From the NCBI RefSeq assembly GCF_009914755.1, contig NC_060927.1: a DNA stretch of 64,000 bases; one strand, given 5' to 3'. Below the pieces are notes generated by a model. It ran no database searches and was not told the DNA's origin. It worked only from the letters and a program-made list of their open reading frames with translations. The position numbers were made by a program, and so were the translations under genes. The stretch comes from the human T2T-CHM13v2.0 reference genome, Homo sapiens. Below, in pieces: positions 4,421 through 20,900 of the stretch. Each line of letters opens with the position of its first letter. The stretch's first letter is position 1.

Positions 4421-4904
4421 AATGTATAATGATGACTGGAAAGGGTGGTAGTCACATGGAAATAATGAAGCAGAATAAAAGTTCCAGATATTAAATGCAA
4501 ATGAGAATTTATTACATGATAAAGCTGGCATTATACTCGGGGGGGACAGATAGGCTACTCACTGAAGTGTTTAGAAGCAGAGTAGCTGAAAATTTTGGCG
4601 CAGAAGAAAATCTCGTGGACCTCCAACTTACCGGTTAAAGTAAAAACTTTCGAAACGTATAAAGGTTTAAATATAAAATTAAAATCGTAAAAACAATTAC
4701 TATGTTAACATATTTCTTATATAGTACTTAGATTTTCCAACATTCCACAAACCTAGTAGCAATTAAGGAAAATATTAATTTCAGATCATATAAAATTCAG
4801 AAGTCCTGTAAGACAAAAATAGACAAATAAAATGTGAAGATTTTTAAGAAAGAACAAAGGGCTAATCTATATTTTGAAATCAGTATAAAAAGACGAACAG
4901 AATT

Positions 4905-5480
4905 TGAGATGTGAGCGCGGACAGCTCTGCTGGGCCCTCCAGGCCCTCCGCCCGGTAGAACCCGGAGCCCTGGCCGCGGCTGCCCCACCGGGCCCATTTC
5001 TTGAAGCAGCGGCGAACCACTTTTCCTCCCCGACCTGCCGGCTGCAGGGTCTCCCCGCCCAACCCTGCCAGGCTCAGACGAAGCTTCTGCTGAGCCGCCT
5101 GGACGCAGCGCCCCTGGGTGGCGGCAGGTATAGCAGGGCGGGAAGCAGGGAGGCGGCCCCAACGCCGCGGAGGCCACCAGCGGGTGCAGAGGGCCAGGAA
5201 AGCTGGTCTGCGCGCGGCTCAGCTGCCTCCGTAGGCCATGGAGCCGAGCAGATCCGGGTCTTCGGGTGGCCGCAATGTCCCAAGTGGACGACACCCACCT
5301 AGTCCCGAGGACAACCGACAAAGTCCTTAATGGGCCCAGAAGGTGAGGGGAGTCCGGCAATGAGGGGTGGTAGGGTTAGCGGCCATCGCCCAGCTCGTCT
5401 TCCTTCTACCAGACGCTGGTGCTGGAAAAGAGAAGTGTAAGAATAACTTGCGCCATTAGGCCCATCGGAAAGGCCCACCA
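4905..5480 (+). promoter_or_regulatory. CpG-rich island (5' end of the NORAD retrocopy), candidate promoter / alternative first exon
   Basis: Dense CpGs in an otherwise CpG-poor region; strong donor AAG|GTGAGG at 5342/5343. Confidence 0.6.
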
Positions 5481-5668
5481 CCCTTTAGGAAGATTACTGG
5501 CTGTTTATAGAAGGCCCGTGTATATCCTATGAAGAAGCTGCTCTCAACTTCCCCCCCAGCCTTTTAAAAGAAAACATTTGCTACATCGAGCCGTTCTAGG
5601 TGTAAAGAGGTTGTGACTTATGATAGAGTTAGAAAATCACACATCTTGTAAATTCCCATTTGTTAAAA

Positions 5669-5706
5669 AAATAATAATAATAATAATAATAATAATAATA
5701 ATAATA
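5669..5706 (+). repeat. (AAT)n microsatellite
   Basis: About 12 AAT units. Confidence 0.95.
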
Positions 5707-5811
5707 GGACATAAATGGCTTCTGGAGATGACTTTTTGCAATGAAGTTGTTAGACCACCTCTGGAAGTGACAGCAGGAGCCACACATCCACGTTTATTAA
5801 GTGAGTTAGAG

Positions 5812-16769: not shown

Positions 16770-17074
16770 TTTTTTTTTTTTTTTTTTTTTTTGAGATGGA
16801 GTCTCACTCTGTCACCTGGGCTGGAGTGCAGTGGCACGATCTCGGCTCACTGCAAGCTCCACTTCCCGGGTTCACGCCATTTTTCTGTCTCAGCCTCCCG
16901 AGTAGCTGGGACTACAGGCACCTGCCACCACGCCCGGCTAATTTTTTTGTATTTTTAGTGGAGACGGGGTTTCACCATGTTAGCCAGGATGGTCTCGATC
17001 TCCTAACCTCATGATCTGCCCACCTCGGCCTCCCAAAGTGCTGGGATAACAGGCGTGAGCCACTGCACCTGGCC
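16770..17074 (-). mobile_element. AluY-like element nested in the ERV
   Basis: Poly(T) then antisense Alu with AluY-type TGCAAGCTCC and TTCACGCCATT; flanks AAAAAAGTGGAATTT / AAAAAGGGGAATTT. Confidence 0.93.
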
Positions 17075-17568
17075 AAAAAGGGGAATTTTTTTTAAACAAA
17101 ATTATGGGAGGTCATTTTTTTGTACTGAGCCCATGCGCCAGGCCCCAACAGACCAAACTAAACCAAAACGGAGTCACGTATGCCAAGACCTTAAGGAAAC
17201 ACATAGATCCTAGAACAGACCACAGGCCAGGTTTTGTTTTTCTCCTACAAATCTCTATAACAAACATTCCTGACAGCATAGATATCCACCCCCTGAGTTC
17301 CCATTAAATCTTTTAACCAAATTAATTTCCTCTCGCCAAAAGACCATCAAGCTTCAGATGATCATGCAACAAAAGTTTCATCCAGTTCCACCACCCCTGG
17401 CCATCAAGGAGCTACCCTGCCTTCACTAGAAAGAGCAGAGCAGGACTTCTGTGATCCTCAATAGGTAGGGACTAGGCCTCAAGCCAACATGAAGCAGTTA
17501 CAAAAGAAAGACCATCGGCCCCTCCACCTCCCATAAAGATTTATGGGGATCCCATCTCTGGAGGGAAA

Positions 17569-17921
17569 TGAGGCAGAAGAATAGGGTCTGTAGGCAAGGA
17601 ATATAAGGCAGATGCATGCTCACTTCCTAGAACTAAATCAAATGGAAACACTTCAGCTATGATGGGAAATGTCTTCTGTATTTACATAGGGCATACACTG
17701 AGTAACCAATGGAAACCTCTAGAGGGTATTTAAACCCCAGAAAATTCTGTAACCGGGCTATTGAGCCCCTATGCTCAAGCCCTCTGCCACCCTGTGGAGT
17801 GTACTTTTGTTTTCAATAAACCTCTGCTTTTGTTGCTTCATTCTTTCCTTGCTTTGTTTGTGCATTTTGTCCAATTATTTGTTCAAGAAGCCAAGAACCT
17901 GGACACCCTCCAGTAGTAACA
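17569..17921 (+). mobile_element. 3' LTR of the provirus (intact AATAAA at 17815-17820)
   Basis: Homologous to 9289-9755 but 114 bp shorter. Confidence 0.92.
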
Positions 17922-20900
17922 CTACTGGACATATAGTGGACAAAATTAAGTCCTTATTTGAAACATCTAGTCTTCTAGATGTTTAGAAGTGCACACAGTA
18001 TGTTAAAAGTAGAGGTAGTAAATAACACATTTTGTAGATATCCTTTTGATTCATATGAAACATTGTCTTTTGGAAATTGATCAAACCACTTCACATTATA
18101 TTTATGCTGATTCAGGGAGGAAGGAGCAGAAGAAAGTGCAAAGGGCTTTATATCAGTGTGTTTACAGTATGACACAATTGACTGTTGTCCCTTATATCTG
18201 CATTTCCTTTTACTTTGCTGTGTATACAAACAAACATTTACATAGCTTTGGAATTTTGAATTGGTAAATATTCATGATGTGTGAAAAAGCATGATACATA
18301 CTGTATGATCCCAATTGCATAACATTGGATGGTGTCCTAATTTATAACATCTAGTCTTTCTAGATGTTAAAGAGATTGCCAGCATATAACAAAACTAGAG
18401 TTAGTAAACTAATACATTGAGTACACTTTGTGTTAAAAATTCATAGGAAAGATTGTTCTTAAAAATGCTTCAAAAGTAGAATTGTTAAAATCCCCCCTAA
18501 GCATTACAGATGTTTATACCTGTCCACTGGATTGATAGAGATAGGAAGGGGAAGGGCTTTAGGCCATGTTCCTATTTAGAAGACACATCCAAATTATAGC
18601 CTTGCTTTGTATGTGCACCATTTATTCAATGCTACTGTGTATAAAGTGGAAAACTCAAGTCCTATTTAAAACACCTAGTCTTCTTAGATGTTTAAAAGTG
18701 CACAATATAGATTAAAAATAGAGGGCTAAAGTAACACCCTTTATGCATTTTTGTGGTTGGTGTTATTTCCTAGGGATGGTTGCATTTGAGAATGGAATTT
18801 TTAAACTTGATGCTGACTGTTCATCAGGTGTCGGCAGGTGGGAAGAGGAGGAGGTATGCAGGGAGAAGGGTTCTGGGCCCGTGAGTTAGATTAGTTCAGA
18901 TGATCTAGCCATTGTTCTGTATGTGAATTTTAGTTAATATTGGTGTGTTTTAAAGAATAAACAAGTCTTAATGCTCAAGGTAGTTTAAAAGTGGAGGTAG
19001 TAAAATATCCCTTTATAAATGTCCTTTTGTTAGTTTTTAGGAAGACCTGCCTTCTGGGAGTAATCTTTGTTAATCCACCCCTTGGAGCTAGACATAGTCC
19101 TGTACTTAGTCACTGGCATGCTAGAAGAGGGAGAAGGGGAAGGGTGAAGGGAAGGGCTTTTTGCTAGTATCTCGGTATCCAGAAGATAGTGTGAGATAAC
19201 AGCCATAGGTCTAACAGCATTTTAGTAAAGTGCCTGCATTTATTGTGGACAAAGTTTATTTTTTGGAACACTTAACCTTTATGAATGTCCTGAGGAGACA
19301 ATGTATGATTAAAAGTAGAGCTAGCGAATTAGCCAATTTGTAAATATCTTTTTGTTATAATTGATAGAAAAGATGCATATTGGACATGGAATTGTTAAAC
19401 CACCACTGAGCAGTGTATATCAGGACTTGCTCATTAAGTTGGCAGCAGGGGGGCAAAAGGAAGCATAAAGGGAGAGATATATGCAGATATACATTTACAT
19501 TTTGATGATAGCCACTGATGTATGTGCATCTCTTTCGGCTGTACTATAGGAATACATTAAGTAATTCAGTGAAAATATGCCTTCTTGCTAATATTTTCAT
19601 GGCATAGAACTACTAATGAATTCTCTTAGAAACATTATACTTAGTGTATTCTGTTGCTTTATGTTTCATTTTAAATTGAACATTAAGGGAATGCAGTATT
19701 TTAATTGGAACTCTGCCAATGCTTTTATCTCAAGGTATGATGCCATTTTTGTCTTTTATAAAATTTTTGTTCCAAGAAAGGCAGGATTACATTTTTTCCT
19801 AATAGATTGAGTTGGTGTAGTGTTTTCTTGACTATCAAAATACTCATATAGCTTTAGGATTTTGAATTGGTAAATATTCATGATGTGTAAAAAAGCATGA
19901 CACATAAAATTGCATGATCTCAATCCCATAAATTTGGATGTTGTTGTCTATACACACACAGGACCTAGAAGGACAAGTCAAACTGTAAACTGCCTGTGAT
20001 TGTGGATGACTTTGCTCTTTGCTTCATGTGTTTTCCAGTTTCCTAAAATGCACGTTAGCTTTTTAAAAATAAAAGATATTTTAAAAACATTAAAAAAGAG
20101 ATGAACATTGTGATAAAAAATAGGCAAAAAATACTAGAGACAGTTACTAGATAACACACATAGAGCCAACACACATCTAAAATTTGAAGCAACTCACTCA
20201 TAAAGAAATAGAATGCATGAGAACATGCACTTTTTTAGATCAGCTAAAGTTAAAGAAAAACTACTAATACCCAGAGGTGGGAAAGGAATAGAGAAAACAG
20301 TTACGGTTACTACTTTTGATGTGACTCTAGATTGGAGAAATCTTTCTCTAGAGGGATGTTTCGCCAAATCTATTATACTTCAAACACATATGTCCTTTAT
20401 TCTTGATTGCACTTCTAGGAATATATCCCATGGAAGTACTCTCACAGGGTGTTTATAATAAGGTGAAAAAATGAAATCCTAAATTTCCATCATTAGAGGA
20501 CCACAGTGATTTAGGATATATCTAAACACTGGGATACTCTGCAGCATTTACAGAGAGTGCAGTAGAGCTATATGAACTGCTGGGGAAAGGTGGTTCAGTA
20601 AAACAAGTTTCATAATCAGATGTATAGTATATAATCATATATTTGAATAAAAACATGAACATATATGCTTGCGTGTGTGTGAAAGGACAGTTACATATGA
20701 GCAGTAGCCTTGGAAGGACAGAGAAAAAAATAATTATTTTAATTTTGCATTTTTATGTACCATTCAACTTCTCAAAATGAAGATCTATTACCTCAATTAC
20801 TTTTTTCAAGTGGCTCTCGGGGAGAAGTTTAATAGTAAAATAATCTGAATTTTGCAGTTCCTGGTATTATGCAATTGTGTATTTTAAGGTCTAAGGAAAG

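What the first reader, a model, noticed from the sequence alone, without database searches (positions are those of the whole stretch)
4900..20094. Hidden full-length NORAD retrocopy, broken by three nested insertions
Seen: the non-repeat pieces 4900-5811, 5989-6136, 7455-9288 and 17926-20094 rejoin at TSDs into ~5 kb that has recurring ~300-nt units, a 3' AATAAA and a degenerate 13-bp flanking duplication inside old L1-like sequence. Established: NORAD is a ~5.3-kb unspliced lncRNA made of repeated units that sequester PUMILIO, and genomic NORAD-related copies exist. Inference (from recalled NORAD sequence): this is an almost complete L1-mediated retrocopy that ORF tracks and repeat masking would overlook.
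Basis: partly seen in the sequence, partly recalled or inferred. Interest (0 to 1): 0.8.

Follow-up and report, generated by a model that had tools for sequence, protein, structure and literature searches.

The report
Old NORAD pseudogene split by insertions
This stretch between the human TF and SRPRB genes is an ancient, nearly full-length dead copy of the NORAD non-coding RNA, later split by three mobile-element insertions; it is real but is one of dozens of such copies.

Summary
With 5812-5988, 6137-7454 and 9289-17925 removed in silico, the four pieces give 5063 nt. This aligns colinearly with the chr20 NORAD locus of the same assembly. One BLAST match crosses all three junctions (79.7% over 3150 columns). 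A global alignment gives 83.9% identity over 4768 columns.

The copy runs from about NORAD nt 20 to the poly(A) site. It has its own AATAAA, a degenerate 13/15-nt flanking duplication and a T/AAAA-type target. It lacks the Alu that today's human NORAD carries.

The three interruptions are:
- a 169-bp element with inverted ends and an 8-bp duplication;
- a 5'-truncated SVA with a perfect 14-16-bp duplication;
- an 8.6-kb LTR provirus with a 4-bp duplication and LTRs 85.6% alike.

It is a decayed relic: 4 Pumilio sites against 15 in NORAD. It is one of at least 37 NORAD-derived loci in this genome, and published work already notes many NORAD pseudogenes.

The L1 nature of the flanks could not be confirmed. 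One point may deserve follow-up: the CpG-rich 5' end (GC 0.66, CpG o/e 0.67) holds a RefSeq-listed alternative SRPRB first exon. Verdict: an ordinary new member of a known kind, of low interest.

The parts
4887..4899 (+). 5' copy of the target-site duplication of the retrocopy (AAAAAGACGAACA), preceded by T, which gives a T/AAAA-type L1 endonuclease target
   Evidence: sequence read directly. It matches 20093-20107 at 12 of 13 positions plus a 2-nt indel.
4900..5811 (+). NORAD piece 1, about nt 20-1021 of the parent RNA, GC-rich
   Evidence: 5034-5810 matches nt 276-1021 at 72.8%; the exact 19-mer at 4933-4951 equals NORAD about nt 57-75, so the copy starts about 20 nt from the 5' end that the young copies define.
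4900..5440 (.). CpG-island-like remnant of NORAD's 5' end. It contains the RefSeq-listed alternative SRPRB first exon 5221-5342, followed by a GT donor at 5343.
   Evidence: 541 nt, GC 0.66, 40 CpG, o/e 0.67. The exon coordinates come from the hub's table. AAG|GTGAGG was read, and the homologous AAGGTGAG in NORAD is visible.
5812..5988 (.). Nested insertion 1: a 169-bp element with inverted ends (5812-5980) plus the second copy of its 8-bp duplication (5981-5988)
   Evidence: ends and duplication; the other 39 of the 40 scored places (one is the query itself) match at 84-89%, out of 2772 first-look candidates, so it belongs to a dispersed family.
5989..6136 (+). NORAD piece 2, about nt 1022-1172
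   Evidence: 5979-6136 matches nt 1013-1172 at 85.2%. The 9-nt overlap with piece 1 is the duplication.
6137..7454 (+). Nested insertion 2: a 5'-truncated SVA-type element made of a GC-rich 37-52-nt tandem array, a unique part and a poly(A), plus one copy of its duplication
   Evidence: 16 copies of the tandem unit; perfect duplication CAATACTATTTTTT. The hub's table masks 6135-7448. The name SVA is from recall of the family's sequence, not from a tool.
7455..9288 (+). NORAD piece 3, about nt 1173-2974, covering several of the roughly 300-nt repeat units
   Evidence: 82% to chr20; 7440-9290 matches nt 1155-2974 at 81.7%.
9289..17925 (+). Nested insertion 3: an LTR-flanked provirus-like element with 5' LTR 9289-9755 and 3' LTR 17569-17921, plus the second copy of its CTAC duplication (17922-17925)
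   Evidence: the LTRs begin TG and end CA, and are 85.6% identical over 347 columns (K2P 0.161); the interior is multi-copy (3859 first-look candidates; listed matches mostly about 70-87% identical, a few short ones up to 91%); none of 9 long frames has a retroviral Pfam domain, so it is decayed.
17926..20092 (+). NORAD piece 4, about nt 2975-5340. It lacks the 289-nt Alu of present-day NORAD (nt 3665-3953).
   Evidence: nt 2965-3283, 3305-3663 and 3950-5335. The 3' ends are aligned.
18242..18339 (+). Private extra segment of about 98 nt, a second copy of NORAD nt 5106-5204 placed between nt 3283 and 3305
   Evidence: 87.9% to NORAD nt 5106-5204 and 84.5% to the copy's own 3' part. None of the 8 other copies compared has it at this place.
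20068..20073 (+). Inherited NORAD polyadenylation signal AATAAA
20093..20107 (+). 3' copy of the target-site duplication (AAAAAGAGATGAACA). It merges with the very short A-run left of the poly(A) tail.

Best explanation
The region is a processed pseudogene of the lncRNA NORAD.

A NORAD transcript, nearly full length and made before the Alu entered the parent gene, was reverse-transcribed and inserted by the L1 machinery. It landed between TF and SRPRB, in the same orientation as both genes.

It then decayed neutrally and was split three times: by a small DNA transposon, by an LTR provirus, and much later by an SVA.

It no longer works as a Pumilio decoy. At most, its CpG-rich 5' end has been picked up as an alternative first exon or promoter of SRPRB.

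Shown here: the homology, the boundaries, the duplications and the relative ages. Inferred: the L1 mechanism, the absolute age and the lack of function.
For: - **Colinearity.** The match to NORAD is colinear from about nt 20 to the poly(A) site. One match crosses all three junctions after excision. Global identity is 83.9% over 4768 columns, K2P 0.184.
- **Boundaries.** Homology stops at the ends of the transcript. The only other matches to the 10-kb NORAD locus are Alu-to-Alu.
- **Retroposition marks.** There is an AATAAA about 20 nt before the end, a flanking duplication of 13/15 nt and a T/AAAA target.
- **Missing Alu.** The Alu at NORAD nt 3665-3953 is absent here and in chr9:116.17M and chrX:77.69M. 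It is present in the chr6:26.39M (HCG11 position), chr12 and chrX:79.43M copies.
- **Tree.** The tree of 13 sequences is a ladder, as expected for successive copies from one master gene. This copy sits in the oldest tier with a terminal branch of 0.096.
- **Order of ages.** The nesting order is consistent. The copy's branch is 0.096. Half the LTR-LTR distance is 0.08. The small element's relatives are 84-89% alike. The SVA has a perfect duplication.
- **Decay.** There are 4 UGUANAUA sites against 15 in NORAD, with about 1 expected in shuffles. Only 2 of 18 aligned body CpGs are retained.
- **Literature.** NORAD pseudogenes are described as numerous (PMC4947167 and PMC6407921, passages read).
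Against: - The poly(A) tail is almost gone: at most 6 A's, and these overlap the duplication.
- The outer duplication is degenerate, so the retroposition marks are weaker than in a young copy.
- The parent has no introns, so intron loss cannot be used as evidence.
- The first roughly 270 nt of NORAD correspond to only about 134 nt here. The two alignment methods place them differently, so the exact 5' start is uncertain by some tens of bases.
- The 98-nt internal extra segment is not explained by simple retroposition.
- No other mammalian genome was on hand, so the age rests on divergence alone.
Confidence: 0.95

Rival explanations
1. Exapted relic (this adds to the main reading rather than excluding it). 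The retrocopied CpG-rich 5' end of NORAD has stayed unmethylated. It now acts as an alternative SRPRB promoter and first exon, using a splice donor that already existed as sequence in NORAD.
For: - 4900-5440 still meets CpG-island criteria: GC 0.66 and o/e 0.67.
- 18 of 50 aligned 5' CpGs are retained, against 2 of 18 in the body.
- The hub's RefSeq table lists an SRPRB exon at 5221-5342 on the same strand.
- AAG|GTGAGG lies at 5342/5343, and NORAD has AAGGTGAG at the homologous place.
Against: - Keeping a CpG-rich 5' end is common among NORAD copies. Eleven of the 15 compared, old ones included, have o/e of 0.65 or more, so it is no sign of selection here.
- The listed exon may come from a predicted or rare transcript.
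- No expression, CAGE or methylation data could be consulted.
Confidence: 0.3
2. A functional NORAD paralogue, an expressed Pumilio-binding RNA in the manner claimed for HCG11.
For: Four UGUANAUA sites remain, against about 1 expected by chance. The sense orientation within transcribed territory would put them into RNA: SRPRB's long isoform, and TF read-through according to the hub's table.
Against: - 11 of the 15 sites that NORAD has are not matched in number.
- The body is interrupted by 10.1 kb of mobile DNA.
- Divergence is at the level of the other old dead copies.
- No colinear transcript is listed in the hub's table.
Confidence: 0.02
3. A DNA-level (segmental) duplicate of NORAD, or a copy of another pseudogene such as HCG11, rather than a direct retrocopy of NORAD RNA.
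For: The 98-nt internal rearrangement and the degenerate duplication leave a little room for this.
Against: - The boundaries coincide with the transcript ends, and no flanking homology is seen.
- In the tree the copy branches below HCG11 and all young copies. It pairs with no other copy, since the oldest tier is unresolved.
- HCG11 carries the Alu that this copy lacks.
Confidence: 0.03

Closest known systems
NORAD (LINC00657), chr20 parent gene
   Same: Same sequence order over about 5.0 kb from near the 5' end to the poly(A) site, the same roughly 300-nt unit structure and the same AATAAA.
   Different: - About 16-20% diverged.
- 4 Pumilio sites instead of 15.
- No Alu at nt 3665-3953.
- About 140 nt shorter in the first 270 nt.
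- An extra 98-nt segment.
- Split by three insertions totalling 10,132 nt.
HCG11 (chr6:26.39M in this assembly) and the other young human NORAD pseudogenes ('four ... >90% ... over >4 kb', Tichon et al. 2016, PMC4947167, passage read)
   Same: Same kind of object: a near full-length retrocopy of NORAD with a CpG-rich 5' end.
   Different: The young copies are 88-97% identical to NORAD, and most of them carry the Alu. This copy is about 80-84% identical, predates the Alu and branches below them. HCG11 is reported as expressed; no such evidence exists here.
Other old NORAD copies in this genome: chr2:46.43M, chrX:77.69M, chr5:33.16M, chr6:28.48M and chr6:29.04M
   Same: Similar identity to NORAD (72-82%) and similar coverage, for example nt 12-5342, 363-5335 and 457-5338. 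They fall in the same old tier of the tree where they were included.
   Different: They lie at different loci and have different nested insertions. This copy reaches closest to the 5' end among those I aligned, apart from chr2:46.43M.

Membership tests
L1-mediated processed pseudogene (retrocopy) | Colinear with the mature parent RNA from near its start to its poly(A) site, with no parental flanking DNA | tested here: met
   Beyond the transcript, the 10-kb NORAD locus gave only Alu-to-Alu matches.
L1-mediated processed pseudogene (retrocopy) | Target-site duplication of about 7-20 bp flanking the copy | tested here: met
   13 against 15 nt, 12 of 13 positions identical plus a 2-nt indel. It is degenerate, as expected for an old copy.
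L1-mediated processed pseudogene (retrocopy) | 3' poly(A) tail after the parent's polyadenylation signal | tested here: inconclusive
   AATAAA is present at 20068-20073. Only 6 A's or fewer remain, and they overlap the duplication.
L1-mediated processed pseudogene (retrocopy) | Insertion at an L1 endonuclease-type site (TT/AAAA) | tested here: met
   GTAT/AAAAAGA is read at 4883-4893. The consensus is from general knowledge.
L1-mediated processed pseudogene (retrocopy) | Loss of the parent's introns | not testable with these tools
   The parent locus is colinear with all its copies, so there is no intron to lose.
Functional NORAD-type Pumilio decoy RNA | Many UGUANAUA sites, about one or more per repeat unit | tested here: not met
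   4 sites here against 15 in NORAD.
Functional NORAD-type Pumilio decoy RNA | Abundant contiguous cytoplasmic transcript | not testable with these tools
   No expression data were available. The hub's table lists no colinear transcript, and the body is split by 10.1 kb of insertions.
   There was no significant match to L1 ORF2 protein or DNA. The best hints were a 13-residue LLGIYP-type match at 20406-20444 (E 0.094) and a 95-column match spanning the junction to the window's own L1 remnant (60%, E 0.14).

The most novel reading that the evidence does not exclude
NORAD retrocopies may act as portable CpG-island seeds. Here the copied 5' end would have stayed hypomethylated for tens of millions of years. 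It would have become an alternative SRPRB promoter and first exon, using a splice donor inherited from NORAD sequence. The nested provirus LTR would supply a poly(A) site to TF read-through RNA. On this reading the dead copy has rewired the transcripts of both neighbouring genes.
Probability: 0.2. Interest if true: 0.4.

Novelty: new member of a known kind. Interest (0 to 1): 0.15.

Why it matters
The direct importance is small. The copy is an unannotated lncRNA pseudogene, and lncRNA retrocopies are not catalogued the way protein-coding ones are.

Practical value:
- NORAD-like reads (RNA-seq, CLIP, probes) can mis-map to this and dozens of similar loci.
- The copy lies inside annotated SRPRB and lncRNA transcripts, and TF transcripts according to the hub's table. 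NORAD-like sequence may therefore appear in those RNAs.

Evolutionary value: the ladder of copies records the history of NORAD, for example the time at which its Alu arrived.

Tried and rejected
- **Rfam scan of 4000-21000.** It gave 7 matches, all below the gathering score and all Alu/SRP- or miRNA-like. No NORAD family turned up, so Rfam gave no help.
- **L1 nature of the flanks.**
  - Genome DNA searches with each flank. Only 4240-4425 belongs to a dispersed repeat. The 3' flank gave one weak hit.
  - tblastn and blastn with an L1 ORF2 frame taken from this genome, and nhmmer. Nothing was significant.
  - A Pfam scan of raw flank translations was rejected by the tool because of stop codons.
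  - Pfam accession PF08333 is not in the library.
- **Pfam on 9 long frames of the provirus.** No retroviral domain was found, only one chance-level acetyltransferase hit. The proviral reading therefore rests on the LTR pair, the duplication and the multi-copy interior.
- **Special CpG conservation at this copy.** Considered and rejected: other NORAD copies show the same.
- **Literature searches.**
  - 'SRPRB' with 'NORAD' gave 2 papers, unrelated by title.
  - 'NORAD pseudogenes' gave 4 records of 2 works.
  - A three-term search on lncRNA retrocopies gave 0.
  - The one held supplement of PMC4947167 has no 'pseudogene', 'chr3' or 'SRPRB'.
  - I therefore found no printed description of this particular copy. 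Lee et al. 2016 (Cell) was not read.
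Full report
**What is there**

The window is human chr3 between TF and SRPRB (hub's table). The assembly itself could be searched.

The piece 7455-9288 finds itself and then a series of places at 77-82% identity. These include chr20:37.77 Mb and chr6:26.39 Mb. From their positions, and from recall of the human map, I take these to be NORAD and HCG11.

I fetched 10 kb around the chr20 place (L011). I defined the parent transcript as the stretch at which the youngest copies begin and end: L011 reverse strand 3058-8403, 5346 nt. 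That length fits the roughly 5.3-kb NORAD RNA.

**Check of the observation**

The raw region 4001-21000 aligns to the NORAD locus in six colinear blocks. They cover NORAD nt 276-1021, 1013-1172, 1155-2974, 2965-3283, 3305-3663 and 3950-5335, at 72.8-85.2% identity.

- The overlaps of 9-18 nt between neighbouring blocks are the target duplications of the nested insertions.
- Cutting out 5812-5988, 6137-7454 and 9289-17925 in a script leaves 5063 nt.
- One match then runs from rejoined position 135 to 3195 across all three junctions (79.65% over 3150 columns). A second covers the 3' 1.4 kb (80.07%).
- A global alignment with the NORAD Alu removed gives 4768 aligned columns, 83.9% identity and K2P 0.184.

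At the 5' end a semi-global alignment places an exact 19-mer (window 4933-4951) on NORAD at about nt 57-75. The first bases after 4899 fall on about nt 17-24. MAFFT placed this GC-rich stretch differently, so the start is uncertain by some tens of bases.

At the 3' end the two sequences align to within a few bases of the end of the transcript. AATAAA lies at 20068-20073.

**Marks of retroposition**

- The copy is bracketed by AAAAAGACGAACA (4887-4899) and AAAAAGAGATGAACA (20093-20107).
- The target reads T/AAAAA, which fits the L1 endonuclease preference (general knowledge).
- Homology to the NORAD locus does not go beyond the transcript; the only other matches are Alu-to-Alu.
- The poly(A) tail has nearly vanished.

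**The three interruptions**

1. 5812-5980 is a 169-bp element with inverted ends and an 8-bp duplication matching at 7 of 8 positions. It belongs to a large dispersed family. Of the 40 scored places one is the element itself, and the other 39 match at 84-89%, out of 2772 first-look candidates. The type, a small non-autonomous DNA transposon, is inferred; the 8-bp duplication suggests hAT.
2. 6137-7454 has a GC-rich tandem array (16 copies), a unique part and a poly(A). It is flanked by a perfect 14-16-bp duplication. I recognise it as a 5'-truncated SVA from memory of that family; no tool named it.
3. 9289-17925 has LTRs at 9289-9755 and 17569-17921 that begin TG and end CA, with a CTAC duplication. 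The LTRs are 85.6% identical (K2P 0.161). The interior is multi-copy in the genome, but none of 9 long frames has a recognisable retroviral domain.

**Age and place in the family**

A search with the whole NORAD sequence lists 37 separate places besides NORAD itself, this one included. Only 40 of 4490 first-look candidates were scored, so this is a lower bound. About 11 further weak places appear only.

Several old copies are as complete as this one, for example chr2:46.43M (nt 12-5342) and chrX:77.69M (nt 363-5335).

A maximum-likelihood tree of NORAD, this copy and 11 other copies over nt 1160-2970 is a ladder.

- The young copies sit next to NORAD.
- This copy lies in an unresolved oldest tier with chr7:25.27M and chr6:28.48M, with chrX:77.69M just outside. 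Its terminal branch is 0.096.
- The 11 others were the copies I had fetched whole.

The Alu inside NORAD (nt 3665-3953) is missing here and in chr9:116.17M and chrX:77.69M. It is present in HCG11, chr12 and chrX:79.43M. This copy is therefore older than that Alu.

Half the LTR distance (0.08) is below the copy's own branch (0.096), as nesting requires. With primate neutral rates of about 1-2.2e-9 per site per year (recalled), the copy would be roughly 45-95 million years old and the provirus roughly 37-80. This is inference only, because no other mammalian genome was available.

**Function**

- The copy has 4 UGUANAUA sites (8110, 8760, 18033, 19339) against 15 in NORAD. Shuffles of the AT-rich body give about 1.
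- Body CpGs are nearly all lost: 2 of 18 aligned sites are retained.
- Together with 10,132 nt of inserted DNA, this makes a Pumilio-decoy role very unlikely.

The 5' end is different. The stretch 4900-5440 keeps GC 0.66 and CpG o/e 0.67, and 18 of 50 aligned CpGs are retained.

The hub's table places an alternative SRPRB first exon at 5221-5342 on the same strand. The exon is followed by GTGAGG. NORAD has AAGGTGAG at the homologous place, so the donor was inherited.

CpG-rich 5' ends are, however, kept by most NORAD copies. Eleven of the 15 compared have o/e of 0.65 or more, and four have 0.15-0.46. The feature is therefore not special to this locus.

The table also ends TF at 17840. That is 20 nt after the AATAAA of the 3' LTR (17815-17820). 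I could not check that row.

**What is known**

Tichon et al. [quoted passage not shown] They count four in human above 90% identity over more than 4 kb, with HCG11 expressed.

Kopp et al. [quoted passage not shown]

At about 80-84% identity this copy is not one of those four. I found no paper that describes it.

**Verdict**

The object is an ordinary old processed pseudogene of a known, prolific parent. The L1 nature of the flanks remains unshown.

Noticed in passing
window 18242-18339: A private extra segment of about 98 nt inside the copy. It is a second copy of NORAD nt 5106-5204, inserted between nt 3283 and 3305. None of the 8 other NORAD copies checked has it at that place. It could be a template switch during reverse transcription or an early local duplication.
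   Followed up: partly
window 17815-17840: The hub's table ends TF at 17840, 20 nt downstream of the AATAAA of the provirus 3' LTR. If that row is right, an LTR supplies a poly(A) site to TF read-through RNA that would contain three pieces of the NORAD copy. I could not verify this.
   Followed up: no
loci L012-L018, L022, L043-L048 (NORAD copies elsewhere in the genome): Most NORAD retrocopies, including old ones, keep a CpG-rich 5' end. Eleven of the 15 compared have o/e of 0.65 or more. chrX:77.69M (0.15) and chr13:42.17M (0.29) have lost it.
   Followed up: partly
window 9405-9545: An 80-nt tandem duplication (9405-9465 and 9485-9545, 92% alike) in the 5' LTR is absent from the 3' LTR. This explains the LTR lengths of 467 against 353 nt.
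   Followed up: partly
window 2753-3299: A remnant of L1 ORF2 on the + strand, 49-54% identical at protein level to a young L1 frame of this genome (E 1.8e-23). It is separate from the immediate flanks of the NORAD copy.
   Followed up: no
window 16770-17074 and 4074-4228: Alu elements, seen as Rfam SRP/mir-1268-type matches below threshold and as Alu-to-Alu BLAST hits. The first lies inside the provirus and overlaps the RefSeq 'enhancer' at 16261-16845.
   Followed up: no
window 5667-5706: An (AAT)n microsatellite inside NORAD piece 1.
   Followed up: no
window 4240-4425: A dispersed repeat of unknown family. Its two halves match many places in the genome at 75-86% identity.
   Followed up: no
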